From a bacterium (GTDB taxonomy: Bacteria > Zhuqueibacterota > Zhuqueibacteria > Residuimicrobiales > Residuimicrobiaceae), in NCBI GenBank assembly GCA_035388125.1, contig DAOOPF010000006.1, positions 1-51,585 on the forward strand: DNA of 51,585 nt. The letters run 5' to 3'. Of this stretch, positions 257 through 19,586 are shown one piece after another. The position numbers were made by a program, and so were the translations under genes. Positions within the stretch are counted from its first letter, which is position 1. Every line of letters begins with the position of its first letter. Below the pieces are notes generated by a model. The model was not told where the DNA came from and searched no databases. It saw only the letters and a list, made by a program, of their open reading frames with translations.

Positions 257-2767
257 CTATTTGATGAAGAGCATGCGTTTGACCGCGGTGAAACGGGGGG
301 TGTTGATCCGGTAGAGGTATACGCCGCTGGCAGCTGCATGGCCACCGTCATCGCGTCCGTCCCAGAGCACCGAATAGTGCCCGGCGGACTGGCGGGTCTC
401 GACCAGGGTACGGACCGGCCGGCCGAGCAGATCATAAATACGCACTGAAACCTCGTGCACACCCTCCGGCAGATCATAAAGGATGGTCGTCGACGGGTTG
501 AAAGGATTGGGATAGTTCTGGCGCAGGCTGAAAGTCGCCGGCACAGCAGTCGCCTCCTCCTCCACTCCGACGGCGGAATAGCCGGCGATACGCAGATCGT
601 CAAAATAGAGGGTTCCCGATGTTTTCCCGCCGGGCTCGAAGCCGAGCTGGATGCTGTCAAAAGCGAGGGTTCCATCGAGCTGCCCGTCACCGAGCCAGCT
701 TCCGGAGGCCTCACTGTTCATATCCCAGCTGATCAGGCGCCAGCCGTACCAGTTGACCTTATACCAGGGGCTGACTTCATGGTTTTCTGCTGCGGCCACA
801 GGGACGCGGTCATCCACAGCAAAACGGAAGAGGGTACCGCTGTTGTCGCCGAAGAGGTAGACCTGCAGGCAGCTGCTCTTGTCAAAGGTGACCGCCTTGG
901 CGGGGCCGCCGAAAAGATAGTCACGCAGCAGCCAGGCGGAGGAACCGGTGTTCCAGCCATAGTCGATTGCGAAAGAAAGGGCACTGCCGGTGAGGGGGTT
1001 GACGATTACGGACGAACCATAGGAGCGGGTGCTGTCGGCGATCGTGCCGGTGGTAGTGCCGCTGGCGGAGGGCTGCCACCAGTTTTCCACGCCGTTCTCG
1101 AAGGTGTCGATGGTCCGCGCGCGCCAGAAGGTGGTGCCGGTTTTCATGCGGACGGTTTTGGTTCCGCCCTCCTCGTTGCCGAGGGTGTCGCGCAAGCCCG
1201 GGGCGATGAGCAGGGCATAGAGCTGATTCGGCTCGAGGTCCACGGCCGGTGCAAATGAGAGAACGCTCCTGGAGCCGACGACCGCATGCGCATAGAGGTG
1301 CGGGATCGGCGTGGTGGTGCCATTCTTCTGCAGGGTGAAAAGGCCGGGATGGATCGAAGCAGCGTCGATCACCTCATCGAAAGTGACGTTCAGGATCGGA
1401 CGGGTGTCGATCGCCGGGCTGTTGGTGGGGGGATAGACCGCTGTGATGCGCGGCGCCGTCATGTCCATGGGGCCGGTGCGGAAGTGGAGAACGAAATCAT
1501 CGCCTCCCACCCGATCGCCGTTGCCGTCGAGGGGATGGCCGTAGCGATCCAGGCCCGTGGCGGCGATGGTGACCTGATAGGCGCTCTCAAAATCGAGGGT
1601 ATCGGGCTTGAAGATCATCTGCTGGTCGTTGTTGCCCCAAAGGAACTGGCCTGTGACAGCCGGTTCGATTTTGAAAGCGGCTTCGAAGCTGGCCCGGTCG
1701 ACCGGCCGGTTGAAGATGAAGCTCAGGTTGCCCCAGGCGGGCTGGCGCTCATACCCGTCAGCAGGTGAAGAGAGTTTGACCGCGGGCGGGCGTTTCCAGA
1801 CCAGTTTGGGATCCACAAAGGTGAAGAAGGTGTCGGCAGCGGTCACCTGCAGGGTATCGGGATAATAGTCCGGTGCGCTGACGATGACCTCGAGGGAACC
1901 GGTGGACAGGCCGTCGAGAAGATAGACGCCGTTGCGCAGGGCCTCCGGGTCCGTGGTGTACTTGTGAAAGGTGGTCTCAAAACTGTCGGTGGTATAGCTC
2001 TTGTCGCCGACTGTGACAGTGGCCCCATTGACGGGCACATTGCGCTCGAGGTCGGCGACGATGCCGGTGAGAACGGGATTGGCCGGCAGCGGGAGGCCGT
2101 GGTAGCGGAGGATTGACCAATAGAGGGTATAAGCCTCCAGTTTGTTAAAGGCGGCGCTCATCTGGCGCATATTCTGGGCCATGTTGGTATGGTAGCCGGC
2201 CTCGCTGAGTTCGGCGGGCATGAGGGTATTTTTCGTCACCGAGAGATAGGGGCACGCGCCGGTGTTGTAAAAGTAGCAGTCCCCGCGCGAGCCGCTGCTT
2301 TTTATGCGCATGCCGCGGCTGAGCTGATCGATCATGATATCCGACATGCCCTTGCCCCCGGCGGGGGGGCGTTCATTGTAATTTGCGAGCTGGCCCCAGA
2401 GCAGCAGGGCCGAATTGACTTCCGAGGCTCCGCCGGAGCCGGTGGCATCGCTGTGGATGGAGTGGAACCAGGCTGCGCCGAGTGAATTGGCATAGGTTGA
2501 CCGCGCTAAAAGCCCGACTGGTGTATTATCATCCTCGCGGGTCAGATAGACGGTGTCGATATCGGTGGTCTCCAGGAGCAGGTCGCGCAGCGCCCAGGCG
2601 ACGCGGACATTTTTCTCCGCCTCGGAAAAACCGGCGACGCCCATATTCTCCCTGAAGCTGTGGCCGGGATCGAGGACGATGTTCCATCCCGCCAGGCCGG
2701 TGACCTGCTGGGCCAGTACGCTGCCGCCCCAGAGCAGAGCCATCAGTGCTATGATCGTTTTTTTCAT
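257..2767 (-). CDS. secreted N-acetylmuramoyl-L-alanine amidase-domain protein with Ig-like repeats and a T9SS/FlgD-Ig-type C-terminal sorting domain
   Basis: ORF 257..2866 trimmed to the ATG at 2767, which gives the signal peptide MKKTIIALMALLWGGSVLAQQ. Amidase_3-like motifs are present (IVLDPGHS, FHSIHSDA). Bacterial Ig-like segments follow. The C-terminus NYPNPFNPSTTILYDLP...GVYLYRI...MLFIK is typical of Por/T9SS C-terminal sorting domains. Confidence 0.8.
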   Translation of the reverse strand: MKKTIIALMALLWGGSVLAQQVTGLAGWNIVLDPGHSFRENMGVAGFSEAEKNVRVAWALRDLLLETTDIDTVYLTREDDNTPVGLLARSTYANSLGAAWFHSIHSDATGSGGASEVNSALLLWGQLANYNERPPAGGKGMSDIMIDQLSRGMRIKSSGSRGDCYFYNTGACPYLSVTKNTLMPAELSEAGYHTNMAQNMRQMSAAFNKLEAYTLYWSILRYHGLPLPANPVLTGIVADLERNVPVNGATVTVGDKSYTTDSFETTFHKYTTDPEALRNGVYLLDGLSTGSLEVIVSAPDYYPDTLQVTAADTFFTFVDPKLVWKRPPAVKLSSPADGYERQPAWGNLSFIFNRPVDRASFEAAFKIEPAVTGQFLWGNNDQQMIFKPDTLDFESAYQVTIAATGLDRYGHPLDGNGDRVGGDDFVLHFRTGPMDMTAPRITAVYPPTNSPAIDTRPILNVTFDEVIDAASIHPGLFTLQKNGTTTPIPHLYAHAVVGSRSVLSFAPAVDLEPNQLYALLIAPGLRDTLGNEEGGTKTVRMKTGTTFWRARTIDTFENGVENWWQPSASGTTTGTIADSTRSYGSSVIVNPLTGSALSFAIDYGWNTGSSAWLLRDYLFGGPAKAVTFDKSSCLQVYLFGDNSGTLFRFAVDDRVPVAAAENHEVSPWYKVNWYGWRLISWDMNSEASGSWLGDGQLDGTLAFDSIQLGFEPGGKTSGTLYFDDLRIAGYSAVGVEEEATAVPATFSLRQNYPNPFNPSTTILYDLPEGVHEVSVRIYDLLGRPVRTLVETRQSAGHYSVLWDGRDDGGHAAASGVYLYRINTPRFTAVKRMLFIK

Positions 2768-2780
2768 TACCGTTCCCTGG

Positions 2781-3746
2781 CTAGTCTCTCTTTTCAATGG
2801 ATTCATCCTGAGTGACCGGCAAGCTCCAGATCTCGCCGGTTTCATAAAGATCATATAGAATGGCATCCCCGCGCGGCGACCAGGCAGGGTGCATCTCGCT
2901 GCGGCCTTCGGTCGAGGTCAGCTTTGTCCTGCCGGCGCCATCGGCCCCGATGATATAGAGATCCGAGCCGGTGATGGTATGTCCGTCATCCTGCGTGACC
3001 ATGAAGACGAGGTGTTGGCCGTCGGGTGAAAAGCCGGGATGTTCTCCAGCACCCAGTTCGACCAGGCCGGTGCCGTCGCTGCGCATCACGCAGAGGGGGC
3101 CGCCGAGGATCTGAAAGGCCACCCTCCCACCATCCGCGGACTGGACCAGATTGAAGATGCGCCTGCCGGCCAGGGCAGCGACTGCCGCCGCCTTTTCGGC
3201 CGCCGGAGCGAGGAGCATGGCCCGGTCGCCGTCCAGGAACCAAAGCGGGCGGTCAGCCCGGCGCTGCAGGAGCGCGGGTTCCAGGCCGGAGGGGATGCGC
3301 TGCAAGCTGCCGTTCATGCTGGCGAAAACCTCCCTGCTGTCGGATCCCCAGCACGGCAAGCCGACGATGCCGGTGCGGTAAGCGGTCAGCAGGGTGTCGC
3401 GGCGGGATGTTATATCAAACCGTTTCAGGGCGTTATGGCGTCTGTGACCCTCCGTGCGGCCGACGCGGGCGAGGATGGAGGCGCCGTCCGGCGACCACTG
3501 CAGGCCGAAGCCGGCGCCGGGCTCATCGGTGATACGGCGCATTTCCGAGCCATCAGGGCGCATCAGCCAGATGCCGGCATAATGCGGGGTCGTGACCGAA
3601 ATCAACTCGCCGTCGGGCGACCACTGCGGAGTGCATAGCGGGTTATTTTCATCGCCGGCCAGGTAGCGCGGCGGGCCGGCGGTTCTGAACCCCGCCCATG
3701 CCGGGCAGACCAGGCAGAGAAGCAGCAGGAGCATTCTTTTTGTCAT
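2781..3746 (-). CDS. TolB-like PD40/WD40-like beta-propeller protein, secreted
   Basis: Signal peptide MTKRMLLLLLCLVCPAWAG. Repeated PD40 motifs: QWSPDGELIS, LQWSPDGASI, FSPDGQHLVF, PAWSPRGDAI. Confidence 0.75.
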   Translation of the reverse strand: MTKRMLLLLLCLVCPAWAGFRTAGPPRYLAGDENNPLCTPQWSPDGELISVTTPHYAGIWLMRPDGSEMRRITDEPGAGFGLQWSPDGASILARVGRTEGHRRHNALKRFDITSRRDTLLTAYRTGIVGLPCWGSDSREVFASMNGSLQRIPSGLEPALLQRRADRPLWFLDGDRAMLLAPAAEKAAAVAALAGRRIFNLVQSADGGRVAFQILGGPLCVMRSDGTGLVELGAGEHPGFSPDGQHLVFMVTQDDGHTITGSDLYIIGADGAGRTKLTSTEGRSEMHPAWSPRGDAILYDLYETGEIWSLPVTQDESIEKRD

Positions 3747-3807: not shown

Positions 3808-3915
3808 GGTTTTTACGGATATACCATGTTTTCCGTGTAGAGAGCACTCCGGAGCGGGTAGCAGAGAAGTAAAGTTGGTCAGGCCTGCTGCGGCCACGAA
3901 AAAGGGCTTGCTTGT

Positions 3916-3930
3916 TGGATGAACATTTGC
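3916..3930 (+). promoter_or_regulatory. weak sigma-54-like -24/-12 element upstream of the heptose kinase gene
   Basis: TGGatgaacatTTGCt has GG and GC at the canonical 12-nt register, but the CAC of the TGGCAC element is not conserved. Confidence 0.2.
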
Positions 3931-3983
3931 TAAACTTACAGGTAGTTTCATATCTCATGAACCATCACCAAAAAGCGGTCCGA

Positions 3984-4985
3984 ATGAATCGTCACATTGT
4001 GCGCGAAAAGCGCATCCGTGAACATATCGCCGCCATGCAGCGGCAGCGCATCATGGTCATCGGCGACCTGATGCTCGATGAATTCATCTGGGGAAAAGTC
4101 TCCCGCATCTCCCCCGAGGCACCTGTCCCTGTGGTACACGTCACCCGTGAGAGCTCCTATCCCGGCGGTGCGGCCAACGTGGCGCGCAATCTGGCCGAGT
4201 TTGGCATCTCATCCGCGATGTGCGGTCTGACCGGCCGCGATTTCAACGGACAGCAGCTGGTCAAGCTGCTCTCAGCGGCCCGCATTGACAGCCAGGGCAT
4301 TCTCATGAGCGGCCGGTTCCCCACCACTGTCAAGACCCGGATCATAGCCCGTCATCAGCAGGTGGTGAGGGTTGACCGGGAGGAGAGCATCCGGCTCTCG
4401 CCCCCCGATCTGCGCAAGCTGGCCCGTTATCTGGAAAAGTCCATCCCGCAAATGAATGCTGTCGTTATCGAGGATTACGGCAAGGGTTTTGTCACCCAGG
4501 AACTGGTGGATCTGGTCCTCCGTCTGGCCCAGGAGCACAAGGTGATTGTCACGGTCGATCCCAATCCGGGCAATCCCTTGCTCTGGCGGGGGGCGACCCT
4601 GATCAAGCCCAATCGTCAGGAGGCCTTTGCCGCGCTCGGCATGCCCGGCAGTGAAGCGCCTGGAGCAATAGAGGCCGCCGGCACCGCACTGCTGGCGCAT
4701 TGGCAGGTGCCTTATCTGCTCGTCACTTTGGGGGAAGAGGGCATGCTCCTCTTTCACCCGCCCAACAAGCCCTATTATAGTCCGACGCGGGCGCGGGAGG
4801 TTTACGATGTCTCCGGCGCGGGCGATACCGCCATCGCCTTTCTGACTGCGGCGCTGGCGGCGGGGATCAGCGCCGAAGAGGCGACGGAGATCGCCAATCA
4901 TGCGGCCGGGATCGTCGTCGGCAAGCTTGGTACTGCGACGGTAGCCGAGAAGGAATTGATCGCGAGTTATATTGACAATGAGTAG
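3984..4985 (+). CDS. hldA: D-glycero-beta-D-manno-heptose-7-phosphate kinase (RfaE/HldE domain I type, PfkB family)
   Basis: IMVIGDLMLDEFIWGKVSRISPEAPVPVV and DVSGAGDTAIA motifs. The ATG at 3984 (alternatively 3957) is preferred over the TTG at 3912. The stop at 4983-4985 overlaps the next gene's ATG at 4978. Confidence 0.8.
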   Translation: MNRHIVREKRIREHIAAMQRQRIMVIGDLMLDEFIWGKVSRISPEAPVPVVHVTRESSYPGGAANVARNLAEFGISSAMCGLTGRDFNGQQLVKLLSAARIDSQGILMSGRFPTTVKTRIIARHQQVVRVDREESIRLSPPDLRKLARYLEKSIPQMNAVVIEDYGKGFVTQELVDLVLRLAQEHKVIVTVDPNPGNPLLWRGATLIKPNRQEAFAALGMPGSEAPGAIEAAGTALLAHWQVPYLLVTLGEEGMLLFHPPNKPYYSPTRAREVYDVSGAGDTAIAFLTAALAAGISAEEATEIANHAAGIVVGKLGTATVAEKELIASYIDNE

Positions 4986-5931
4986 GCCCGCCGTTTTTTT
5001 CGACCGGGATGACACCCTGATCCGGAATATTCCCTACAACGGGGATCCGGAGAAGGTCGAGCTTCTGCCCGGCGCGCGGGAGGCGCTGCTCGACCTCCGG
5101 CAGGCCGGTTTCACGCTGGTCATCATCTCCAACCAGTCGGGTGTCGGCCGGGGCCTGATCACCCCTGCGCAGGTGGATGCTGTCAACCGCGAGATGATGC
5201 GACAGCTGGGCGAAGAGCTCTTCGCGGGCATCTATCTCTGCTTCGCGGCTCCGGACCAGCCCGATGAAAACTGCCGCAAGCCCCATCCCGGAATGGTTTT
5301 GCAGGCGAGGGATGAACACGACCTCGACCTGGAGGGCTCTTTTTTCATCGGCGACAAGCTGATCGATGTTCAGTGCGGCCGGAATGCCGGCTGCCATGCG
5401 GTTTTGTTGTATAATCCCCATGATGATCCGGAAAAGAGAGCGGCCGCCACTGAGGCAGCCGATTTCACCGCCTCCACCCTCCCGGAAGCGGCCCGCTGGA
5501 TCATCGCAACCCATCAGGAGCGGGCACAGCGCCCGTCCAACAAAGAGAGGAAACACACTATGATCGCCAAAAATCAGGTTTATCGCTGCGGTGTCTGCGG
5601 CAACATGGTCGAAGTGGTCGCTGTCGGCGGCGGCACGCTGGTCTGCTGCGGCCAGCCTATGAACCTGCAGGAGGAGAATACCACCGACGGCGCCACTGAA
5701 AAGCATGTGCCGGTAGTTGAGAAAAACGGCACGGTCAAGGTTACAGTCGGCAGCGTCCTTCACCCCATGACCGAGGCGCACTATATTCAGTGGATCGAGG
5801 TAGTCACGGCGAGCAAAGTGCTGCGCAAATACCTCAAGCCGGGCGAGGAACCCGTCGCGGTGTTCACCGTGGATGAGCCGGTGCTCAAGGTGCGCGAATA
5901 CTGCAACCTGCACGGGCTGTGGGCAGTCTGA
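4978..5931 (+). CDS. in-frame fusion ORF: D,D-heptose 1,7-bisphosphate phosphatase (HAD, GmhB-like) followed by desulfoferrodoxin (2Fe superoxide reductase)
   Basis: The N-terminal part has FFDRDDTLI, VIISNQSGVGRG, CRKPHPGM and FFIGDKLIDVQ motifs. No stop codon occurs before MIAKNQVYRCGVCGNMVEV...CCGQPM...EKHVPVV...HPMTEAHYIQWIE...EYCNLHGLW. The whole region is a single frame from 4978 to 5931. Confidence 0.7.
   Translation: MSRPAVFFDRDDTLIRNIPYNGDPEKVELLPGAREALLDLRQAGFTLVIISNQSGVGRGLITPAQVDAVNREMMRQLGEELFAGIYLCFAAPDQPDENCRKPHPGMVLQARDEHDLDLEGSFFIGDKLIDVQCGRNAGCHAVLLYNPHDDPEKRAAATEAADFTASTLPEAARWIIATHQERAQRPSNKERKHTMIAKNQVYRCGVCGNMVEVVAVGGGTLVCCGQPMNLQEENTTDGATEKHVPVVEKNGTVKVTVGSVLHPMTEAHYIQWIEVVTASKVLRKYLKPGEEPVAVFTVDEPVLKVREYCNLHGLWAV
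5560..5931 (+). CDS. dfx: desulfoferrodoxin module, a possible independent translation start inside the fusion ORF
   Basis: The ATG at 5560 is preceded by AAAGAGAGGAAA 8 nt upstream. The 123-aa product has the length of stand-alone Dfx. It keeps the CxxC...CC desulforedoxin centre and the His/Cys centre II ligand pattern. Confidence 0.6.
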   Translation: MIAKNQVYRCGVCGNMVEVVAVGGGTLVCCGQPMNLQEENTTDGATEKHVPVVEKNGTVKVTVGSVLHPMTEAHYIQWIEVVTASKVLRKYLKPGEEPVAVFTVDEPVLKVREYCNLHGLWAV

Positions 5932-5974
5932 ACTTAAGGTACAATTCAGCCGGTATCACTCTCAGGAGGGAACC

Positions 5975-7321
5975 ATGAAACAGCTCTCCATTGTTCTTGT
6001 CTTTATGCTGCTCCTCGGCGGCATCGCCGCTGCGCAGGTCGAGCCGTCGGGCGACGCCCTTTTGGGCAGCAAAAAGTACGAGCAGTATGAAAAGCCGGAG
6101 GCATGCAAAAGCTGTCACCCCGATTTCTATCAGCAGTGGCGGCAGTCGATGATGTCCCAGGCGTTCACTCATCATTGGGATGAGATCGAGTATTTCGATC
6201 TCGCCGTACCCCATGCCGATAAGGTGCCCGGACTCAAGGGGCCGGTCGATGGCTGCAACGGCTGCCACACGCCCCTGGCCTTTATGGCCGGGGATGTGAC
6301 CCCGCCGCGGCCAACGGAAAATTCACGCGCCAACGAAGCAGTCAGCTGTGAGGTTTGCCACACCATCAGCGGCTGGTCCGGCGATGTGCCGCACAATTTC
6401 AGCTACATCTCCACGCCCGGGCGCAAAAAATTCGGCTCCAAGCCTGGACTGGTTTCGCCGCACCACGATACCGAACAGAATGCTCTCTATGAGCAGACGG
6501 AATTCTGCGGCAACTGCCATAACGAGAAGAGCCCGTTCGGCGTCTGGGTAAAATCGACCCAGATCGAGTGGAAAGAGGGGCCCTATGCCGCGCAGGGGGT
6601 ACCCTGTCAGCAGTGCCACATGCCCAAGGCATGGGGCAAAAATGCCACCATGGCCAAGGAGGACATGGTAGCGCAGCATCTGTTCCATGGCGCCCATGAC
6701 GCAGGCAAGGTCGGCGGCACTATCGAGCTGCGCATCCACCCGTCCGAGCAGGAGGTCCCCTATGACGGGACGGTGGCCCTGAGCGTCCAGCTCTTCAACG
6801 CCAAGACCGGCCATAAATTCCCCTCCGGCTCGGTTGAGGACCGCATCGTCTGGCTACATGTCACCGCCAGGGATGCCGCCGGCAAGATCTATCACCTCCC
6901 GGTCGACAAGAAGGGCTTCGCAGGCGAGGAGTACACGATTGCTGCCGACGTGCTGGCCTACCAGGACATGGGCCTGCCCAAGGGCATCGCCAATTTTGCC
7001 GGTGTACAGCGCGACGGGGTCCCGGCCGGGGACAGGATCTTCCGCATGCCCTATTTCGACCCCGAAGGCCGGATGACCATTATGCAGTGGAATACCAAAT
7101 CCCTGGGTGTCGATTACCGCATCGGACCGCGTGAGACCAAAACCGAGACCTACACCTGGCAATTGCCGGATGATGTGACGGCGGGTCCGGTCACCATCAC
7201 CGCACAGCTCAATTTTCAAAAGCTGGTTAAACCTGTGGCCGATTTTCTTGGTGTGCCGGCCGATGAAAGCGAGATCATTCCCGTCAACAGCGCCACAACC
7301 ACCTTTGAAATCTACGAATAA
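5975..7321 (+). CDS. secreted pentahaem c-type cytochrome
   Basis: The ATG at 5975 follows AGGAGGG. Signal peptide MKQLSIVLVFMLLLGGIAAAQ. Five CXXCH motifs: CKSCH, CNGCH, CEVCH, CGNCH, CQQCH. The C-terminal roughly 200 aa contain no haem motif. Confidence 0.8.
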   Translation: MKQLSIVLVFMLLLGGIAAAQVEPSGDALLGSKKYEQYEKPEACKSCHPDFYQQWRQSMMSQAFTHHWDEIEYFDLAVPHADKVPGLKGPVDGCNGCHTPLAFMAGDVTPPRPTENSRANEAVSCEVCHTISGWSGDVPHNFSYISTPGRKKFGSKPGLVSPHHDTEQNALYEQTEFCGNCHNEKSPFGVWVKSTQIEWKEGPYAAQGVPCQQCHMPKAWGKNATMAKEDMVAQHLFHGAHDAGKVGGTIELRIHPSEQEVPYDGTVALSVQLFNAKTGHKFPSGSVEDRIVWLHVTARDAAGKIYHLPVDKKGFAGEEYTIAADVLAYQDMGLPKGIANFAGVQRDGVPAGDRIFRMPYFDPEGRMTIMQWNTKSLGVDYRIGPRETKTETYTWQLPDDVTAGPVTITAQLNFQKLVKPVADFLGVPADESEIIPVNSATTTFEIYE

Positions 7322-7338
7322 ACCCGAGGAGGCGCATC

Positions 7339-8541
7339 ATGAAACGAGTACCAGAAATCCTGATCCTCTTTGCATTGCTGCTGGGCATGCAGTGGTTGAT
7401 CGTGCCCGATGAGAGCCAGGCCATCCCCGCTTTCGCGCGGCGCAACAATCTCTCCTGCTCCACCTGTCATGCTCCGATCCCCAAGCTCAAACCCTACGGC
7501 GAGGATTTCGCCGGCGACGGTTTTATCATCGCCGAGAACGAAAAAGAACGTGACTATGTGACCGCCGGAGATGATTTGCTGTGGCTGAACAAAACCTTCC
7601 CCATCAGCGTCCGCCTTGACGCTTATGGCGTGTACAATTCCAGGGGTGAAGTAAAGAGTGATCTGCAGTCGCCCTGGGGCTTGAAACTGATGTCCGGCGG
7701 CACCCTGGCCAAAAACATCGGCTATTATTTCTATTTCTATATGAGCGAACGCGGCGAGGTGGCCGGCATCGAGGACAGCTACGTCCATTTCAATGATGTG
7801 TTCGGCATCCCGCTCGACGTGATGGTGGGTCAGTTCCAGACCAGCGACCCACTCATGAAGCGCGAACTCAGGCTGACTTATGAAGATTATATGATTTACA
7901 AACTCAAGGTCGGAAATTCGCACGCCAACCTCGCCTATGATCGCGGCGTCATGTTCGCCTACGGCATTGAGCAGACGGGAACCGATCTGGTGTTTTCGTT
8001 CTCCAACGGCAACGGCAAGAACGCCGCCGATGAGGAGAGCGGGGCATTCGATATCGATGCGGGAAAAAATATCGGCCTGCGCTTGAACCAGGGGATAACG
8101 GACCATTTCAGTGTGGGGGGCTATTACTATTTCGGTGAAGAGAGCATGAGCAGCGATCTCAAGAACAAGGTGACCTATATCGGACCGGATTTCAAGGCCA
8201 TTCTGGGCCCGGTTGAGGTCACGGCCCAGTACCTGCTGCGCAAGGACACCAATCCGTGGTTCGCTGAAACCGAGGCGGAGACGGAAACCAGCGGCATCGT
8301 GCTGGAAGCGGTTATTTCGCCGCAGCTTGATCGCTCGCGTTATTATTTTACAGTGCTCTACAACAGCATCGATCAGGAGCAGAATATCGGCACCATGGGC
8401 GCGAACAGCGCCCTCTACGAGACCGCCACTTTCAGCGCCACCTATTTGATGGCGCGCAACCTGCGGCTGATGGCCGAGTATACCCGCGATCTGGACAATG
8501 ATGCCAACCGGATGCTGATCGGCCTGGTGAGCGGATTTTAG
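7339..8541 (+). CDS. Cyc2-like fused monohaem cytochrome c / outer-membrane beta-barrel protein
   Basis: The ATG follows GAGGAGG. There is a signal peptide, then AIPAFARRNNLSCSTCH, which contains the only CXXCH. About 350 aa follow with a beta-strand-like alternating pattern rich in G, Y, N and D. The protein ends ...LIGLVSGF. Confidence 0.6.
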   Translation: MKRVPEILILFALLLGMQWLIVPDESQAIPAFARRNNLSCSTCHAPIPKLKPYGEDFAGDGFIIAENEKERDYVTAGDDLLWLNKTFPISVRLDAYGVYNSRGEVKSDLQSPWGLKLMSGGTLAKNIGYYFYFYMSERGEVAGIEDSYVHFNDVFGIPLDVMVGQFQTSDPLMKRELRLTYEDYMIYKLKVGNSHANLAYDRGVMFAYGIEQTGTDLVFSFSNGNGKNAADEESGAFDIDAGKNIGLRLNQGITDHFSVGGYYYFGEESMSSDLKNKVTYIGPDFKAILGPVEVTAQYLLRKDTNPWFAETEAETETSGIVLEAVISPQLDRSRYYFTVLYNSIDQEQNIGTMGANSALYETATFSATYLMARNLRLMAEYTRDLDNDANRMLIGLVSGF

Positions 8542-8705
8542 GGGAAAAAATCGCGCCCAGCCGGAGGGCAGATCTCTCCCCCGTCTGAAGCAGCCGATGC
8601 CGCCCACCCTGGGAGAGTGAATTTGGCAGAAACCGGAAGCGCACACACCCATTTTCAGAGCTGAAACAGGCACTCGAATAAGAATCGCAGTACAGCATCC
8701 CAAAA

Positions 8706-8728
8706 GGAGGAGCAATCCTCCTTTTTTT
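8706..8728. terminator. bidirectional rho-independent terminator between convergent genes
   Basis: Stem ggagga / tcctcc with loop gcaa, flanked by an A-run (8702-8705) and a T-run (8722-8728). It serves the + strand cytochrome genes and the long - strand string that ends at 8727. Confidence 0.7.
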
Positions 8729-16190: not shown

Positions 16191-17366
16191 TCAGAGCAGA
16201 GAGGCGGCCAGCATCAGCATATCATCACCGGGCTCGGCGCTGCTGAATTCGACCACGCGATCAACAATTGCTTTGGCGGTTTCGAGTGCTGAGGATCCCC
16301 TGCCCTCCTGGCGGATGACGCGCTGCAGCCCCTGGAGGCCGATGATTTTGCCGGCGGCGGTTTCGGCCTCAACCAGACCGTCAGTATAAAGCAGCAGCTT
16401 GTCGCCCGGTTTGTAGTCCATGGAGGCTGAGCGGAAAGCAGTCTTTTCGGTTCGGGCGAAACCGATAATGGCATTTTGCGAATCGAGCCGGGTGAAGCTC
16501 TGGCCGTCGCGCAGGAGGAGTGCGGCAGGATGGGCACTGCCGGCGTAGCGCAGTCTTTTTTTCTGCAGATCGACCTCCACAGCCATGATGGTCAGGAAGA
16601 GCGGGGTATCATAAAAGGTATCGATAAAGAATTCATTCAGTCGCCAGAGGAGTTCCGCGGGGTCGGGGGCCTGCTGCACGGCCCGGCGCCACTCATGGCA
16701 CACCCGGCTGACCAGGAGGGCCGCGGCGATGCCGTGACCGGTGACATCAATGACCACCAGGTAGAGTCTGTTCTCATCGATGAGATAGAGGTCGGCAAAG
16801 TCGCCGCCGAGGCCGATCATGGGCCGGTAGCAGATGCCAACATCGATCCCTGGGGTGGTGAAAGCAGAGGGCACCAGGCTGGCCTGGATCTGCCGCGCGA
16901 GGATGAGGTCGCGGTCGATCATCTCGTGGTGCATCTGCAGGATCTTTTCCTGGTCGGCCAGAGTCAGCAGGAGGCGGCGGCGTTCGATGGCATTGCGGAC
17001 TTTGATGGTCAGGGCGTCGGGCTGAACCGGCTTGGTCAGATATTCATAGGCGCCTTCGCGCATGGCCCGGACGGCGGTGCCCACCGAGGCGAAACCGGTG
17101 ATGATAATCACCTGGGTATAGGGGTCCTTCCGGGTCGCCTCCTTGAGCACATCAAGTCCGCTCAGTTTCTGCATCTGCATATCGCTGATGACCACGTCCA
17201 GCTTGGAGGCTTCGATTGTGGTCATGGCGGCCTCGCCGGAATCGGCTTCAAGAACGGTATAGGAGTCGCGCCGCAGAATTTCGACGAAGAGCCGGCGCAG
17301 GTTGGGGTCATCCTCGACCACGAGGATGGTGTGGTGCGAGAGGTCGGGCTTGTTTATTTCAGCCAT
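16191..17366 (-). CDS. response-regulator receiver fused to a PP2C/SpoIIE-type Ser/Thr phosphatase
   Basis: REC motifs ILVVEDD, VVISDMQM and LTKP. PP2C motifs GGDFADLY, VIDVTGHGIAAAL, LYTDGLVEA and GDDMLMLA. Confidence 0.85.
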   Translation of the reverse strand: MAEINKPDLSHHTILVVEDDPNLRRLFVEILRRDSYTVLEADSGEAAMTTIEASKLDVVISDMQMQKLSGLDVLKEATRKDPYTQVIIITGFASVGTAVRAMREGAYEYLTKPVQPDALTIKVRNAIERRRLLLTLADQEKILQMHHEMIDRDLILARQIQASLVPSAFTTPGIDVGICYRPMIGLGGDFADLYLIDENRLYLVVIDVTGHGIAAALLVSRVCHEWRRAVQQAPDPAELLWRLNEFFIDTFYDTPLFLTIMAVEVDLQKKRLRYAGSAHPAALLLRDGQSFTRLDSQNAIIGFARTEKTAFRSASMDYKPGDKLLLYTDGLVEAETAAGKIIGLQGLQRVIRQEGRGSSALETAKAIVDRVVEFSSAEPGDDMLMLAASLL

Positions 17367-19138
17367 CTTACCGCCATCATGGTGATATCATCGGATTGGG
17401 GCATGTCGGCGCTGTGGGCGCGGACCGCATCGACTATGGTGTTCAGGAGCTCCTCAAGGGGCAGATGCAAATTCGGGCGGACCACCGCTTCAAGCTTCTC
17501 CTCCTCAAAATCCTCATCGCCGGAGCTTTTTGCTTCGGTCACTCCGTCGGTGAAGAGGAGCAGCAGATCCCCTCTTTGCATGGGGACGGTTTCGGAGGCG
17601 TAGGGCATGTTGGGCAGCATGCCCAGCAGCAGTCCCCCCGTCTCCAGCCGCCGGGTGGAGCCGTCGGCGCGGAAGAGGTAGGGCAGATTGTGCCCGGCGT
17701 TGACATACGTGAAGCTCTTGCCGGCGAGATCGAATTCGCCGTAGAAAAAAGTGATGAATTTGTCGTAGCCGGTGTTAGCCTGGATGAAATTATTGAGCCT
17801 TCCCACCATGGCCGGAATGTCGCCGCCGATCCCGACAAGGTTATGCAGACCGGCGTGAAGAGAAGACATCAGCAGGGAGGCTGGCACGCCCTTGCCCGAG
17901 ACGTCGGCGATGGCCACGGCGAGGCGGTTATCTTCGAGCCGGATGCAGTCGAACAAGTCTCCGCCGACCTGGCGGGTCGGGATATTCAGCCCCTTGATTT
18001 CCACGCCATCGATCTGGGGGCATTCCTGGGGAAGGAGGCGCTGCTGGATATCGCGGGCGATGTTGAGTTCCTCTTCGATGCGCTCTTTTTCGAGCGCATC
18101 GGCGAAGAGGCGGGCATTTTCGATCGAAATCATCGCGAGATTGCAGAGGGTGCTTAGAAACTCGATTTCATCGGGCTGGAATGGTTGGGCTTTGATCTTT
18201 TCACCGACGACAAAGAGGCCGCGGATCTCCTCCTCCATCTGCATCGGGATGACCAGCTTGAGCCGTTGCGACTTGAGGAGTTGGAGGCCAGGCGGGAGTT
18301 CATCCACGTCCACGTTGAGCACACGATCGACCCCTGCCAGCGCCTCGATGAATTCCGGCGCGCTGAGCAGCCGGCAGTTGGGATCATCCATGCGCAGTCC
18401 ACGGCTGCCGAAAAGCTGCAGTGTCTGCTCCTTGCGCAGATAGAGGTAGCAGCGGCTGACCACCAGCTCACCCATGACGGCATAGATCAGCAGATTGACG
18501 ACACGATCGATCTCGAGATTGGCATTCAGCTCCTTGCCGATTTCGAAGAGCGTGCGTAATTCCTGGACTTTTTTATCCAGCCGGCGGTTGACCTCTTCGA
18601 GCTGCTGATACATGAGGGCGTTTTCGATGGAGGAGGCGGCGATATTGGAAAGTGAGGTCAGATACTCGATCTCGGTGGGTTTAAAGGGGATACCGCCGAG
18701 TTTGCTGCCCAATCCCATGATGCCGATGGTGCGCTGGACGCTGATGATCGGGATGACCAGATCGATCCTGTTCTCCTGAAAAAAGGCCTTCAGCCTTTCG
18801 TCTTCCTCCTGAATATCGGCGACGATGAACGAGTCCGGCAGTTCGCCGGAGAAGAAAATCTTTTTCCCCAGCAAGTTGCGGGGCATCCCCTTGAGGGTGG
18901 TGACCTCGAAGGCCTGGTGTTCATTGGCGACCAGGACGACGCCCCGGCTGATCATCATCCGGCCCATCGGGGTGAGGAGCAGATTGTTGAGCGTGGTGCG
19001 CAGATGGAGCGACGAGTTCAGGACCTGGCTCATTTCAAAGAGGGACTGCAATTCGACCAGGCGTTCATCCAGTTCTCGGGCCACGGCGCTGTGGGAATCC
19101 GGTTCTTTCAAGGCAGGGTGGTCCCGTTCAGTTGACAA
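17354..19138 (-). CDS. cytoplasmic multi-GAF PP2C/SpoIIE-type phosphatase
   Basis: Two to three GAF-like modules are followed by VGGDLFDC, IADVSGKGVPASL, LFTDGVTEA and SDDITMMAV. The start overlaps the RsbW-like stop. Confidence 0.8.
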   Translation of the reverse strand: MSTERDHPALKEPDSHSAVARELDERLVELQSLFEMSQVLNSSLHLRTTLNNLLLTPMGRMMISRGVVLVANEHQAFEVTTLKGMPRNLLGKKIFFSGELPDSFIVADIQEEDERLKAFFQENRIDLVIPIISVQRTIGIMGLGSKLGGIPFKPTEIEYLTSLSNIAASSIENALMYQQLEEVNRRLDKKVQELRTLFEIGKELNANLEIDRVVNLLIYAVMGELVVSRCYLYLRKEQTLQLFGSRGLRMDDPNCRLLSAPEFIEALAGVDRVLNVDVDELPPGLQLLKSQRLKLVIPMQMEEEIRGLFVVGEKIKAQPFQPDEIEFLSTLCNLAMISIENARLFADALEKERIEEELNIARDIQQRLLPQECPQIDGVEIKGLNIPTRQVGGDLFDCIRLEDNRLAVAIADVSGKGVPASLLMSSLHAGLHNLVGIGGDIPAMVGRLNNFIQANTGYDKFITFFYGEFDLAGKSFTYVNAGHNLPYLFRADGSTRRLETGGLLLGMLPNMPYASETVPMQRGDLLLLFTDGVTEAKSSGDEDFEEEKLEAVVRPNLHLPLEELLNTIVDAVRAHSADMPQSDDITMMAVRWLK

Positions 19139-19586
19139 CTTTTGAACTCTTGCGGTTTATCAGATATTTTACCATCCGGACCTGATTGCGCACGCCGGGT
19201 TTGATCGTATAGTCTACTTCATCCATCAGGGTGCGCATCAGAAAAATGCCCAGGCCGCCGACCCTGAGCTCGGCCAGATACTCTTTCATATCAGGCGGCT
19301 GCACTGTGTCCGGATTGAATCCCTTGCCATGGTCGGTGACGATGAGGGTCAGCTTCTGATAGTCGATCTGGATGGCCACGTCCAGCGTCTTGTCCTGCTC
19401 CGCCTCCCTGTAGGCGTGTTTCATCACGTTGGTGCACGCCTCGTCGATGGCGAGTTCGATTTTGCCGACATCATCCTCCGGAAAGCCGACCTTTTCGGCC
19501 ACCTTGCCGACAAAAAAGCGGATGATCTCCAGGTTTTCGGTTTGACTTGGTATGCGCAGTTTATATTCTATTTTGGCTTTCGGCAT
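19128..19586 (-). CDS. RsbW/SpoIIAB-type anti-sigma-like serine kinase (HATPase_c)
   Basis: ELAIDEACTNVMKHAY (N box), VTDHGKGFNP (G1) and VGGLGIFLMRTLMDEV (G2). 152 aa. Confidence 0.8.
   Translation of the reverse strand: MPKAKIEYKLRIPSQTENLEIIRFFVGKVAEKVGFPEDDVGKIELAIDEACTNVMKHAYREAEQDKTLDVAIQIDYQKLTLIVTDHGKGFNPDTVQPPDMKEYLAELRVGGLGIFLMRTLMDEVDYTIKPGVRNQVRMVKYLINRKSSKVVN

What the first reader, a model, noticed from the sequence alone, without database searches (positions are those of the whole stretch)
5975..8541. Cyc2-like fused cytochrome-porin next to a pentahaem cytochrome: a candidate outer-membrane electron conduit
Seen: 7339-8541 encodes a 400-aa protein. It has a signal peptide (MKRVPEILILFALLLGMQWLIV) and then AIPAFARRNNLSCSTCH, which contains the only CXXCH. 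About 350 aa follow with alternating-hydrophobic, G/Y/N/D-rich beta-strand character, ending ...MLIGLVSGF. An aromatic C-terminus is typical for OM beta-barrels. 17 nt upstream ends 5975-7321, a secreted protein with five CXXCH motifs (CKSCH, CNGCH, CEVCH, CGNCH, CQQCH). Both genes have strong SDs.

Known: Cyc2 of Acidithiobacillus, Zetaproteobacteria and Gallionellaceae is a fused monohaem cytochrome-porin of about this size. It is implicated in Fe(II) oxidation at the outer membrane and is usually encoded beside periplasmic c-type cytochromes. As far as I recall, its N-terminus carries an A-x-P-x-F-A-x6-CXXCH signature, which this protein matches.

Inference: this is a Cyc2-type extracellular electron-transfer module with a pentahaem periplasmic partner. 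It sits in a lineage, judged from the T9SS-type CTD and S46 peptidase, that is not classically associated with iron oxidation.
Basis: partly seen in the sequence, partly recalled or inferred. Interest (0 to 1): 0.68.

Follow-up and report, generated by a model that had tools for sequence, protein, structure and literature searches.

The report
Cyc2-type cytochrome-porin with pentahaem partner
Two adjacent genes encode an outer-membrane pore with one built-in haem, related to the bacterial iron oxidase Cyc2, and a five-haem periplasmic cytochrome; the pair travels together in many non-iron-oxidising bacteria, so it is a known kind of electron gate in an unstudied form.

Summary
Gene 7339-8541 encodes a 400-aa protein with a signal peptide, one CXXCH and a predicted 16-strand porin ending in Phe. 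Gene 5975-7321, which ends 17 nt upstream, encodes a secreted protein with five CXXCH motifs.

The Cyc2 reading holds. The protein has the AXPXFAR core at the published spacing from CXXCH, the PXL motif, a length above 365 aa and an OprP/OmpF-like barrel. All 38 aligned homologues keep the CXXCH.

It is not a Cluster 1 (neutrophilic iron-oxidiser) Cyc2. Its barrel matches only the 'FARKY' sequences that I equate with Cluster 3 (Nitrospira, Acidobacteriota, one Mariprofundus paralogue), the cluster whose function is least certain. It reads FAR-R-N, so it fails the strict published motif filter.

The pentahaem gene lies directly upstream in all 26 loci that carry this subfamily, including Marinilabilia salmonicolor and a MAG assigned to Ignavibacterium album. 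No other neighbour is conserved. The pentahaem protein resembles Thermochromatium tepidum cytochrome c552 (5ZE8) and lacks the catalytic Cys/Sec of MccSep.

Cyc2 homologues in KSB1, Calditrichota, Ignavibacteria and Bacteroidota were already reported from surveys. What looks new is the fixed pentahaem pairing and the unusually high conservation. Function and direction of electron flow are untested.

The parts
7339..8541 (+). Cyc2-family fused monohaem cytochrome-porin, 400 aa
   Evidence: ORF and sequence. It has 1492 homologues, and the best 120 are at least 58% identical over the full length. It is a full-length homologue of Cluster 3-like Cyc2 sequences. No Pfam or NCBIfam model matches it.
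7339..7422 (+). Signal peptide (residues 1-28). The likely cleavage is SQA|I, which would put AIPAFAR at or near the mature N-terminus.
   Evidence: Direct reading of the sequence. Residues 4-21 are modelled as a helix. Alignment conservation begins at A28. No SignalP run was available.
7420..7488 (+). Cytochrome signature: AIPAFARRN (residues 28-36), CSTCH (40-44, nt 7456-7470) and PKL (48-50)
   Evidence: Compared with the published consensus AXPXFAR[Q/K][T/Y]...CXXCH...PXL. P30, F32, R34, R35, C40, C43, H44, P48 and L50 are invariant in 38 sequences.
7603..8535 (+). 16-strand beta-barrel (residues 89-399), followed by the C-terminal Phe
   Evidence: AlphaFold2 strand list. Foldseek matches OmpU, OmpT, OmpF, OmpC, OprP and OprO at E about 1e-11.
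7837..7938 (+). Longest loop, between strands 5 and 6 (residues 167-200; loop L3 by position). Together with the end of strand 5 it carries the invariant block GQFQTSDPLMKRELRLTxEDY (residues 164-184).
   Evidence: Invariant columns G164-Y184 and its position between E159-166 and E201-210. Its role as a pore constriction or as the distal haem ligand (M173, or H150 on strand 4) is inferred.
5975..7321 (+). Secreted pentahaem c-type cytochrome, 448 aa, of the c552 (5ZE8) type, with a haem-free beta-rich C-terminal half
   Evidence: Pfam Cytochrome_C554 and Cytochrome_C7. PDB entry 5ze8 matches at E 3.6e-11 in three collinear segments. It has 2460 homologues, and the best 120 are at least 69% identical. 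Haem motifs lie at nt 6104-6118, 6254-6268, 6347-6361, 6506-6520 and 6605-6619. It has a signal peptide without a lipobox Cys.
4972..5931 (+). Upstream gene in the same orientation, 43 nt before the pentahaem gene: a GmhB-type HAD phosphatase fused in frame to desulfoferrodoxin. It is probably in the same transcription unit.
   Evidence: The same fused gene is called in L121-L123.
3912..4985 (+). PfkB-family sugar kinase, overlapping the next gene by 14 nt. It is the likely first gene of the unit.
   Evidence: The order PfkB-HAD-pentahaem-Cyc2-like is kept in L121-L123 and L125.
8702..8725 (+). Terminator-like hairpin followed by a T run, between the Cyc2-like gene and the convergent SpoU methylase gene
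   Evidence: This is a consensus match only.

Best explanation
The two genes form a self-contained outer-membrane electron-transfer module.

The components:
- The 400-aa protein belongs to the Cyc2 family of fused cytochrome-porins. A short N-terminal segment carries one c-type haem and is tethered to the periplasmic end of a 16-strand porin.
- The 448-aa protein is its dedicated soluble periplasmic partner. It has five haems, all probably bis-His ligated, and an Ig-like C-terminal domain, as in Thermochromatium tepidum cytochrome c552.

How it probably works: together the two proteins give a six-haem path between the periplasm and the pore lumen. A 16-strand barrel is too narrow to hold a multihaem protein. 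The reacting species must therefore be small and dissolved, and must enter the pore. By precedent from the three Cyc2 proteins tested biochemically, that species is most likely Fe2+. It would be oxidised at the pore haem, and the electron would pass to the pentahaem carrier and on to the respiratory chain.

What is shown: the architecture, the family relationship and the obligate pairing of the two genes.
What is inferred: physical docking of the two proteins, the substrate, and the direction of electron flow.

I put about 0.85 on the statement that this is a Cyc2-family porin with a dedicated pentahaem partner. I put about 0.45 on inward flow from Fe(II).
For: Family features:
- The motif core, its spacing to CXXCH, the PXL motif and the length fit the published definition.
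- A 16-strand barrel is predicted, and it matches OprP, OprO and general porins.
- Against a Cluster 3-like Cyc2 HMM that excludes this subfamily, the protein scores 131 bits over residues 8-388.
- The barrel alone scores 58.5 bits, with HHalign 99% probability, E 8e-18 over 285 columns.

Pairing of the two genes:
- The pentahaem gene lies directly upstream on the same strand in 26 of 26 loci that carry this subfamily.
- These loci span KSB1/Zhuqueibacterota-like, Latescibacteria, Eisenbacteria, Ignavibacteriota, Bacteroidota and Thermoanaerobaculia.
- No third gene is shared among them.

The pentahaem protein:
- It aligns collinearly with 5ze8.
- It has five invariant non-motif His residues (H66, H164, H235, H241, H280) for five haems.
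- It has no Cys outside the haem motifs.

Precedent:
- One Cyc2 from each published cluster oxidises Fe(II) in vitro.
- Other Cyc2 groups also sit next to periplasmic cytochromes. The Acidithiobacillus type has a dihaem protein of about 210-235 aa downstream; the Nitrospira and Acidobacteria groups have a dihaem protein of 260-330 aa downstream.
Against: - No experiment exists for any member of this subclade. Ten literature searches found none.
- The barrel shows no detectable similarity to Cluster 1 or Acidithiobacillus-type Cyc2 (6.2 and 1.7 bits).
- The Cyc2 authors consider Cluster 3 function the most uncertain. [quoted passage not shown]
- The partner is not the high-potential Cyc1-type dihaem cytochrome. 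It is a bis-His-type pentahaem protein whose closest solved relative is, from my memory of the paper's title, a low-potential cytochrome. That makes it an awkward acceptor for Fe(II) electrons.
- No oxidase, Cyc1, rusticyanin or inner-membrane quinol dehydrogenase is encoded in the 51.6-kb window or beside the module in any locus.
- The hosts are facultatively anaerobic organoheterotrophs.
- The cytochrome segment (residues 22-84) is modelled with pLDDT below 50, so the position of the haem is unknown.
Confidence: 0.5

Rival explanations
1. The same module runs outward. Quinol-derived electrons pass through the pentahaem carrier to the pore haem, which reduces small soluble acceptors in the pore, such as chelated Fe(III), quinone or humic analogues, or possibly O2. 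This would give fermentative or facultatively anaerobic FCB bacteria an electron sink.
For: - The partner is an all-bis-His-type pentahaem protein related to c552 of T. tepidum. That type is usual for low-potential electron delivery (general knowledge).
- FeGenie classes Cluster 3 Cyc2 as possibly reductive and finds it in the iron reducers Geobacter and Rhodoferax.
- Cyc2-like genes were found in Fe(III)-reducing Ignavibacteriaceae and were enriched in an anoxic humic hypolimnion.
- The hosts are anaerobic or facultative heterotrophs.
Against: - No Cyc2 homologue has been shown to work reductively.
- Fe(III) is insoluble at neutral pH, and its chelates are bulky for a constricted 16-strand pore.
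- No inner-membrane quinol dehydrogenase is linked to the module.
Confidence: 0.25
2. The module is part of the oxygen and iron stress response rather than of respiration. It would oxidise incoming Fe2+ at the outer membrane, or dispose of electrons or oxidants in the periplasm, and so limit Fenton chemistry when an anaerobe meets O2.
For: - In the window and in L121-L123, desulfoferrodoxin is encoded immediately upstream in the same apparent unit.
- In L124 the order is ferritin, desulfoferrodoxin, peroxiredoxin, pentahaem, Cyc2-like, Fe/Mn superoxide dismutase.
- L125 has the same wider synteny as the window but no desulfoferrodoxin. That points to gain or loss of this gene right at this spot.
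Against: - Only two independent contexts out of about seven show this neighbourhood.
- No such genes were found beside the module in the Bacteroidota, Ignavibacteriota, Eisenbacteria, Latescibacteria or KSB1 loci.
- Desulfoferrodoxin is cytoplasmic and cannot be a direct partner.
Confidence: 0.15
3. It is a growth-supporting lithotrophic iron oxidase, equivalent to Cyc2 of Zetaproteobacteria or Gallionellaceae, which would make this organism an overlooked iron oxidiser.
For: - It shares the family motif and architecture.
- Surveys have made this interpretation for Cyc2 hits in KSB1 and Calditrichota.
Against: - It is not in the Cluster 1-like group.
- Neither the window nor any locus shows Cyc1, cbb3 or aa3 oxidase, or carbon-fixation genes.
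- The module occurs in cultured organoheterotrophs, namely Marinilabilia salmonicolor, and in the species Ignavibacterium album through a MAG. To my knowledge neither is known to grow on Fe(II).
Confidence: 0.1

Closest known systems
Cyc2 Cluster 3 (McAllister 2020 / Keffer 2021 numbering; includes Leptospirillum Cyt572), represented here by motif-bearing homologues from Ca. Nitrospira defluvii, Acidobacteriota, Myxococcota, Krumholzibacteriia and a Mariprofundus 'FARKY' paralogue
   Same: - It has a signal peptide, AIPAFAR...CXXCH...PxL and a 16-strand porin.
- Homology runs the full length, barrel included (131 bits over the whole protein, 58.5 bits for the barrel alone).
- A periplasmic c-type cytochrome gene is adjacent.
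   Different: - The trailing motif residues are R-N (R-Y in the subfamily) instead of K-Y.
- It is shorter: about 390-407 aa against 430-510 aa.
- The barrel is much more conserved: 55-98% pairwise identity, mean 65% (the set was chosen from best hits).
- The partner is a pentahaem protein of about 448 aa upstream, not a dihaem protein of 260-370 aa.
- Equating my 'FARKY' supergroup with published Cluster 3 is an inference from statements in the papers. It is not a tree placement.
Cyc2PV-1 of Mariprofundus ferrooxydans and other Cluster 1 Cyc2 proteins (Zetaproteobacteria, Gallionellaceae, Chlorobium)
   Same: The fused monohaem cytochrome-porin plan and the AXPXFAR core. Both have a 16-strand barrel structurally like OprP/OprO.
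   Different: - Only the N-terminal 60-130 residues align (42 bits).
- The barrels are not detectably similar (6.2 bits; HHalign probability about 6%).
- Cluster 1-type loci mostly have no adjacent multihaem gene.
Acidithiobacillus ferrooxidans Cyc2, with cyc1 downstream
   Same: A fused cytochrome-porin encoded beside a periplasmic c-type cytochrome. The PXL spacing after CXXCH is the same.
   Different: - The partner there is a dihaem protein of about 210-235 aa downstream; here it is a pentahaem protein upstream.
- The barrel is not detectably similar (1.7 bits).
- No rusticyanin or oxidase genes lie nearby.
Thermochromatium tepidum pentahaem cytochrome c552 (PDB 5ZE8)
   Same: - It has five haem motifs in the same order.
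- The alignment is collinear, including the GHxxP(S/T)G stretch at the start of the second domain (E 3.6e-11).
- The sizes are similar: 435 against 448 aa.
   Different: - Similarity is low outside the haem motifs.
- Its physiological role is not established.
- To my knowledge it is not reported to be paired with a cytochrome-porin.
- The AlphaFold2 model of the window protein was too poor (pLDDT 50) for a fold comparison.
MccSep / ExtKL of Geobacter sulfurreducens (pentahaem selenoprotein, polysulfide reductase)
   Same: Five c-type haems plus a C-terminal Ig-like domain, and a periplasmic location. There is a weak NCBIfam match (52 bits).
   Different: - It lacks both the defining haem-ligating Cys (C239) and the Sec/Cys (U325); no Cys lies outside the haem motifs.
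- The score is far below the family cut-off of 250 bits.
- The evidence therefore favours a carrier over this enzyme.
Porin-cytochrome complexes (MtrAB/MtoAB/PioAB, Geobacter Pcc)
   Same: An outer-membrane barrel plus a periplasmic multihaem cytochrome, encoded side by side.
   Different: - Those barrels have 20-26 strands, carry no haem and sheathe the multihaem protein.
- Here the barrel has 16 strands and carries its own haem, so the pentahaem protein must stay in the periplasm.

Membership tests
Cyc2 fused cytochrome-porin (definition of Keffer et al. 2021, PMC8406198) | N-terminal signal peptide | tested here: met
   It has a hydrophobic N-terminus and an SQA|I site. Residues 4-21 are modelled as a helix, and alignment conservation starts at A28. 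No SignalP run was available.
Cyc2 fused cytochrome-porin (definition of Keffer et al. 2021, PMC8406198) | A single CXXCH near the N-terminus | tested here: met
   C40-H44 is the only CXXCH, and C40 and C43 are the only Cys residues. The motif is invariant in 38 of 38 homologues.
Cyc2 fused cytochrome-porin (definition of Keffer et al. 2021, PMC8406198) | AXPXFAR core upstream of CXXCH at the family spacing | tested here: met
   The sequence is AIPAFAR + RN + NLS + CSTCH. The spacing is the same as in Zetaproteobacteria (AIPAFARQT-GAA-CLSCH) and Acidithiobacillus sp. sequences.
Cyc2 fused cytochrome-porin (definition of Keffer et al. 2021, PMC8406198) | Strict trailing residues [Q/K][T/Y] (the regex PXFAR[Q/K][T/Y] used to admit sequences to the published tree) | tested here: not met
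   - The window protein has R-N.
- All 38 close homologues have R at the first position, and most have Y at the second.
- Orthologues that are 56-58% identical over the full length (L071, L102) carry the exact K-Y.
- I treat the regex as a screening heuristic: K to R is conservative, and homology is full-length. A strict filter would still exclude this protein.
Cyc2 fused cytochrome-porin (definition of Keffer et al. 2021, PMC8406198) | PXL motif 4 residues after CXXCH | tested here: met
   The sequence is H44-API-P48-K-L50. P48 and L50 are invariant.
Cyc2 fused cytochrome-porin (definition of Keffer et al. 2021, PMC8406198) | Length of at least 365 aa | tested here: met
   The protein is 400 aa.
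Cyc2 fused cytochrome-porin (definition of Keffer et al. 2021, PMC8406198) | 16-strand porin structurally like OprO/OprP | tested here: met
   The model has 16 strands over residues 89-399. Foldseek finds OprP 2o4v at rank 5 (TM 0.57, 410 columns), OprO 4rjx at rank 33, and OmpU, OmpT, OmpF and OmpC at E about 1e-11.
Cyc2 fused cytochrome-porin (definition of Keffer et al. 2021, PMC8406198) | Score above cut-off with a FeGenie Cyc2 cluster HMM, or placement on the published tree | not testable with these tools
   Neither the HMMs nor the figshare alignment is available here. As a surrogate I built HMMs from 120 motif-bearing genome loci. They give 131 bits (Cluster 3-like), 42 bits (Cluster 1-like) and 48 bits (Acidithiobacillus-like).
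Cyc2 fused cytochrome-porin (definition of Keffer et al. 2021, PMC8406198) | Fe(II) oxidase activity and outer-membrane location | not testable with these tools
   This needs expression, haem staining, fractionation and kinetics.
Cyc2 Cluster 1 (neutrophilic iron oxidisers) | Sequence similarity across the barrel to Zetaproteobacteria/Gallionellaceae Cyc2 | tested here: not met
   The barrel alone scores 6.2 bits, and HHalign probability is about 6%. As a control, the Cluster 1-like and Acidithiobacillus-like barrels match each other at 97%.
MccSep / ExtKL pentahaem (seleno)protein | Five CXXCH plus a conserved haem-ligating Cys and a Sec/Cys in the Ig-like domain | tested here: not met
   The five motifs are present, but no Cys lies outside them and the gene ends in TAA. 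NF040886 scores 52 bits against a cut-off of 250. The defining features are taken from the preprint.
Pentahaem cytochrome c552 of the T. tepidum type (5ZE8) | Five haem motifs in conserved order followed by an Ig-like domain | tested here: inconclusive
   The profile matches 5ze8 at E 3.6e-11 in three collinear segments, the last of them weak. The C-terminal half is modelled as beta-rich with moderate confidence, but the overall model has pLDDT 50, so no fold search was made.
MtrB/PioB-type porin-cytochrome complex | A haem-free barrel of 20-26 strands enclosing a multihaem cytochrome | tested here: not met
   The barrel has 16 strands and its own haem motif.

The most novel reading that the evidence does not exclude
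The 'FARR' Cyc2-like porin and its c552-type pentahaem partner may be a distinct two-gene redox cassette of FCB-group heterotrophs whose main job is not lithotrophic iron oxidation. It could be a reversible electron vent to soluble acceptors, or part of the O2 and iron stress response.

On this reading, the unusual conservation of a surface protein reflects a tight, specific six-haem complex. Barrel identity is 55-98% across several phyla, against 20-66% within iron-oxidiser Cyc2 groups. Because most members fail the published PXFAR[Q/K][T/Y] filter, the clade would be under-represented in existing Cyc2 trees. Survey hits in these phyla would then be over-read as iron oxidation.
Probability: 0.3. 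Interest if true: 0.65.

Novelty: new variant of a known kind. Interest (0 to 1): 0.42.

Why it matters
Cyc2 is the main marker gene used to infer iron oxidation from genomes and metagenomes. Hits in KSB1, Calditrichota, Bacteroidota and Ignavibacteriota are already being read as 'novel iron oxidisers'. This locus shows that those hits belong to a separate, very conserved subclade. The subclade is tied to a pentahaem partner rather than to the Cyc1/oxidase context of true iron oxidisers. It lies in the part of the family whose function is least certain.

If the module works differently, iron-cycle inferences from surveys would need correcting. The module also occurs in Marinilabilia salmonicolor, a cultured organism, and in MAGs assigned to the cultured species Ignavibacterium album. 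The long-open question of what non-Cluster 1 Cyc2 homologues do can therefore be tested directly.

Tried and rejected
- **No family match for the 400-aa protein.** Pfam and NCBIfam scans found nothing, even at E 10. Weak Porin_4, BBP2 and SlpA_C hits appear only in some homologues. Sequence and profile searches of the PDB found nothing meaningful.
- **Bona fide Cyc2 sequences.** They are not given as text in the supplements of the Cyc2 paper. I obtained them with a degenerate DNA pattern for PxFAR[QK][TY]xxxCxxCH on the genome collection. Matches in the N-terminal region are therefore partly by construction, so I repeated all comparisons on the barrel alone.
- **AlphaFold2 of the pentahaem protein.** The model reached only pLDDT 50. 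I ran no fold search on it and used a profile search of PDB sequences instead.
- **MccSep/ExtKL polysulfide reductase.** Considered because of the NCBIfam hit; rejected because the catalytic Cys and Sec/Cys are absent.
- **MtrAB-type sheath model.** Rejected because the barrel has 16 strands.
- **A conserved third component.** I looked for an inner-membrane quinol dehydrogenase, Cyc1 or an oxidase by clustering all ORFs of 26 loci. Only the two genes recur, apart from antisense shadow ORFs.
- **Oxidative-stress neighbours.** I searched all 124 loci held at that point for desulfoferrodoxin, peroxiredoxin, superoxide dismutase and ferritin. They occur only in the window's close relatives and in L124.
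- **Rest of the window.** A Pfam scan of ten further ORFs, together with the gene annotation of the syntenic loci, shows no respiratory genes and no further cytochrome genes.
- **Literature.** Ten searches found survey-level reports only. None gave an experiment on this subclade, and none mentioned the pentahaem pairing.
- **No maximum-likelihood tree.** Barrel identities between groups are too low and no tree software was available. Classification rests on HMM and HHalign scores.

Full report
**1. Observation**

The sequence is as described.
- ORF 7339-8541 (+) encodes 400 aa. It starts MKRVPEILILFALLLGMQWLIVPDESQA-IPAFARRNNLSCSTCH and ends ...GLVSGF.
- The upstream gene, read from the ATG at 5975, gives 448 aa and stops at 7319-7321. 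That is 17 nt before the next ATG.
- Both starts are preceded by GGAGG-type ribosome-binding sites (5964-5970 and 7326-7332).
- The 400-aa protein has only two cysteines, which form its one CXXCH. The 448-aa protein has ten, all within five CXXCH motifs.
- A longer ORF on the opposite strand (7312-8715) is a shadow ORF in 59% GC DNA.

**2. The 400-aa protein: family and conservation**

- No Pfam or NCBIfam model matches it, and no PDB sequence does.
- It has 1492 homologues in the 5.8-billion-protein collection. The best 120 are all 58-99% identical over the full length.
- Those that are named come from candidate division KSB1 (now Zhuqueibacterota, FCB group), Latescibacteria, Eisenbacteria, Calditrichia and unclassified bacteria. 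All are annotated 'hypothetical'.
- In an alignment of 38 of them the CXXCH is invariant, and the consensus reads AIPAFARRYxxSCxTCHAPxPKLKPYG.
- A profile search of 1.84 billion 50%-identity representatives finds 2645 clusters at E of 1e-3 or better, and 142 at 1e-30 or better.

**3. Is it Cyc2?**

Keffer et al. 2021 define the family by several features:
- a signal peptide;
- one CXXCH;
- the motif AXPXFAR[Q/K][T/Y] just upstream of it, which they call unique to Cyc2;
- a PXL motif four residues after it;
- a 16-strand porin resembling OprO/OprP;
- a length of at least 365 aa.

The window protein has AIPAFAR at the family spacing, PKL at +4, and 400 aa. Its two trailing motif residues are R-N instead of [Q/K][T/Y]. 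The whole close subfamily has R at the first of these positions. It therefore fails the regex the authors used to admit sequences to their tree. Orthologues that are 56-58% identical (L071, L102) carry the exact K-Y.

AlphaFold2 on the 38-sequence alignment gives pLDDT 71 and pTM 0.70.
- It shows sixteen strands between residues 89 and 399.
- Short turns alternate with longer loops.
- The longest loop (167-200) lies between strands 5 and 6.
- The haem segment (22-84) is of low confidence, as expected without the cofactor.

Foldseek against the PDB returns 16-strand porins at E about 1e-11: OmpU, OmpT, OmpF, OmpC, OprP 2o4v at rank 5 and OprO 4rjx at rank 33.

**4. Which kind of Cyc2?**

The FeGenie HMMs are not available here. 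I therefore fetched reference sequences with a degenerate DNA pattern for PxFAR[QK][TY]xxxCxxCH from one genome per species. This gave 120 loci. They include Mariprofundus and other Zetaproteobacteria, Sideroxydans, Gallionellaceae, Acidithiobacillus, Ca. Nitrospira defluvii, Acidobacteriota, Myxococcota, Krumholzibacteriia, Gemmatimonadota, Bacteroidota and Ignavibacteriota.

BLAST clustering puts the window protein in a group of 25. The other members are:
- Ignavibacteriota and Melioribacteraceae;
- a MAG assigned to Ignavibacterium album;
- Bacteroidales;
- the cultured Marinilabilia salmonicolor;
- Gemmatimonadota and Longimicrobiales;
- two distant gammaproteobacterial-type sequences.

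Identities to the window protein are 28-58%.

These sequences were selected by the N-terminal motif, so I compared the barrels alone (everything from 25 residues after CXXCH).
- The subfamily's barrel matches the Acidobacteria (96%), Krumholzibacteriia (91%) and Myxococcota/Eisenbacteria (88%) groups.
- It does not match the Zetaproteobacteria/Gallionellaceae group or the Acidithiobacillus-type group (about 5%).
- Those two groups match each other at 97%.
- Against a pooled 'FARKY' barrel profile, HHalign gives 99%, E 8e-18 over 285 columns. The window barrel scores 58.5 bits by HMMER, against 6.2 and 1.7 bits for the other two groups.
- Full-length HMMs give 131 bits (residues 8-388), against 42 and 48 bits confined to the N-terminus.

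The papers state that Zetaproteobacteria carry both Cluster 1 and Cluster 3 genes, and that Leptospirillum (Nitrospirota) Cyt572 is in Cluster 3. On that basis I equate the 'FARKY' supergroup with Cluster 3. This is an inference, not a tree placement. The authors call the function of Cluster 3 'most uncertain'. [quoted passage not shown]

**5. The pentahaem neighbour**

- It matches Pfam Cytochrome_C554 and Cytochrome_C7.
- It has 2460 homologues, and the best 120 are at least 69% identical, nearly all 445-449 aa long.
- A profile of 34 of them matches one PDB entry, the pentahaem cytochrome c552 of Thermochromatium tepidum (5ze8), at E 3.6e-11. The match is in three collinear segments. They cover haems 1-3, then haems 4-5 with the GHxxP(S/T)G stretch, and weakly the C-terminus.
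- NCBIfam gives a sub-threshold hit (52 bits, cut-off 250) to ExtKL. ExtKL is the Geobacter pentahaem selenoprotein recently characterised as the polysulfide reductase MccSep. Its defining features are a haem-ligating Cys and a Sec/Cys in the Ig-like domain.
- The window protein has no cysteine outside its haem motifs, so it is not that enzyme.
- Five invariant non-motif histidines (H66, H164, H235, H241, H280) would allow bis-His ligation of all five haems. That suits an electron carrier. This step is inferred.
- It has a signal peptide without a lipobox, so it should be soluble in the periplasm.
- The AlphaFold2 model was poor (pLDDT 50) and was not used for a fold search.

**6. The pairing is the rule**

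- In 26 of 26 loci carrying this subfamily, the pentahaem gene is immediately upstream on the same strand. In some of them it is cut by the end of the locus.
- The 26 are the window, 19 genome loci and 6 contigs fetched by exact protein.
- After clustering all ORFs of these loci, only these two genes recur, apart from antisense shadow ORFs. Other shared neighbours occur only among the window's nearest relatives.
- In Ignavibacteriota the first haem motif is CXXXCH, so the protein is still pentahaem.
- Other groups have other partners:
  - the Gemmatimonadota members of the group have a small monohaem gene downstream instead;
  - Acidithiobacillus-type Cyc2 genes have a dihaem gene of about 210-235 aa downstream (the cyc2-cyc1 pattern);
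  - Nitrospira and Acidobacteria groups have a dihaem gene of 260-330 aa downstream;
  - Krumholzibacteriia have a dihaem gene of about 340-370 aa upstream;
  - Cluster 1-like loci mostly have none.
- The pentahaem partner is therefore the hallmark of this FCB-centred subclade.

**7. Genomic context**

- In the window the two genes follow a PfkB kinase (3912-4985) and a GmhB-type phosphatase fused in frame to desulfoferrodoxin (4972-5931). The first two genes overlap by 14 nt, and the fusion gene ends 43 nt before the pentahaem gene.
- A terminator-like hairpin lies at 8702-8725, before a convergent SpoU gene.
- The wider order runs amidase, PD40-repeat protein, PfkB, HAD, pentahaem, Cyc2-like, SpoU, PfkB, PBP1, M50 protease. 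It is kept in relatives whose Cyc2-like protein is 61-65% identical (L121-L123, L125). The module is therefore chromosomal and vertically inherited there.
- L125 lacks the desulfoferrodoxin part.
- L124 places the pair between ferritin, desulfoferrodoxin and peroxiredoxin on one side and superoxide dismutase on the other.
- Eisenbacteria, Latescibacteria and KSB1 loci show unrelated neighbours.
- Neither the Pfam scan of ten further ORFs nor the annotated syntenic loci showed an oxidase, Cyc1, rusticyanin, a quinol dehydrogenase or another cytochrome in the 51.6-kb window. The genes seen are housekeeping and regulatory, plus an S46 peptidase.

**8. Mechanism**

Shown:
- the protein is a Cyc2-family fused monohaem cytochrome-porin;
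- a c552-type pentahaem gene is obligately linked to it;
- there is no third conserved gene.

Inferred:
- With an even number of strands, both ends of the barrel are periplasmic. The haem segment then sits at or inside the periplasmic mouth, where the soluble pentahaem protein can dock. Together they would make a six-haem path.
- There is no invariant Met or His between CXXCH and the first strand. The sixth haem ligand probably comes from the barrel (H150 on strand 4, or M173 in loop 3).
- Loop 3 is the loop that constricts classical porins (general knowledge). Here it carries the invariant acidic block QTSDPLMKRELRLTxEDY (residues 167-184; the full invariant block GQFQTSDPLMKRELRLTxEDY starts at G164 on strand 5).
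- A 16-strand pore admits only small solutes. Fe2+ is the precedent substrate, since one member of each Cyc2 cluster oxidises Fe(II) in vitro.

I therefore favour Fe2+ oxidation in the pore with electrons handed to the pentahaem carrier, but with only about 0.45 confidence in that direction. A bis-His pentahaem protein is more typical of low-potential, outward electron delivery. The hosts are facultatively anaerobic heterotrophs. The occasional oxidative-stress neighbourhood suggests a protective role in some lineages.

**9. Comparison and novelty**

- Cyc2 homologues have already been reported in Ignavibacteriaceae and Bacteroidetes (2019), Krumholzibacteria (2021), Calditrichota, Eisenbacteria and KSB1 (2022), and again in KSB1 (2023). 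All came from marker-gene surveys.
- The presence of a Cyc2-like gene in this lineage is therefore not new.
- I did not find three things described in the library I could search:
  - the fixed pentahaem pairing;
  - the separateness of this subclade from the iron-oxidiser clusters;
  - its high conservation. Barrel pairwise identity is 55-98%, mean 65%, against a mean of 29% in the Cluster 1-like set and 37% in the Acidithiobacillus-like set. My set was drawn from best hits, which inflates the figure.
- I rate it a new variant of a known kind, of moderate interest. It matters mainly because it bears on how Cyc2 hits in heterotrophic phyla should be read, and because cultured carriers make it testable.

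Noticed in passing
window 4972-5931 (+): A single 319-aa ORF joins a GmhB-type HAD-IIIA heptose-bisphosphate phosphatase (residues 1-180) in frame to a complete desulfoferrodoxin (residues 198-318; TIGR00320, 173 bits). The same fused 320-aa gene is called in three independent assemblies of a relative (L121-L123). L125 has the phosphatase alone, and L124 has desulfoferrodoxin alone. This is an unusual fusion of an LPS-precursor enzyme with a superoxide reductase.
   Followed up: partly
L124 4485-10134 (CP070762.1): The module sits inside a run of oxidative-stress and iron-storage genes: ferritin, desulfoferrodoxin, AhpC-type peroxiredoxin, pentahaem, Cyc2-like, Fe/Mn superoxide dismutase. Together with the desulfoferrodoxin in the window, this hints at a link to O2 and iron stress in some lineages.
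   Followed up: partly
window 7420-7446; alignment A1: All 38 close homologues read FARR, and most read FARRY. They therefore fail the regex PXFAR[Q/K][T/Y] used to admit sequences to the published Cyc2 tree, so this subclade may be under-represented there.
   Followed up: partly
L012, L032, L058, L081, L085, L094 (pentahaem orthologues): In Ignavibacteriota-type orthologues the first haem motif is CXXXCH (for example CGTSCH) instead of CXXCH. The other four motifs are unchanged.
   Followed up: yes
window 7312-8715 (-) and 5885-7219 (-): Long antisense ORFs (467 aa opposite the Cyc2-like gene, several opposite the pentahaem gene) are shadow ORFs of high-GC coding DNA. The ones inside the pentahaem gene recur in 21 loci only because the sense gene is conserved.
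   Followed up: yes
window 24758-27723 (-): A Memo+AMMECR1 fusion protein (524 aa) lies next to a radical SAM protein, which is the AmmeMemoRadiSam set. A Memo/AMMECR1 gene and a radical SAM gene also lie about 6 kb from the module in the Eisenbacteria locus L126. This is probably coincidence.
   Followed up: no
window 16191-20040 (-): This is a partner-switching type regulatory cluster: a response regulator-SpoIIE phosphatase, a GAF-SpoIIE phosphatase (594 aa) and two small proteins (152 and 123 aa) of the size expected for an anti-sigma factor and its antagonist.
   Followed up: no
window 257-2866 (-) and 45975-48266 (-): An Amidase_3/Big_5 protein has a C-terminus that resembles a T9SS sorting domain (its orthologue in L121 carries FlgD_ig), and there is an S46 dipeptidyl peptidase (671 bits).
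   Followed up: partly
L042 4724-7197: In one Bacteroidales MAG both genes of the module are broken into several frames. This could be a pseudogenised copy or an assembly error.
   Followed up: no
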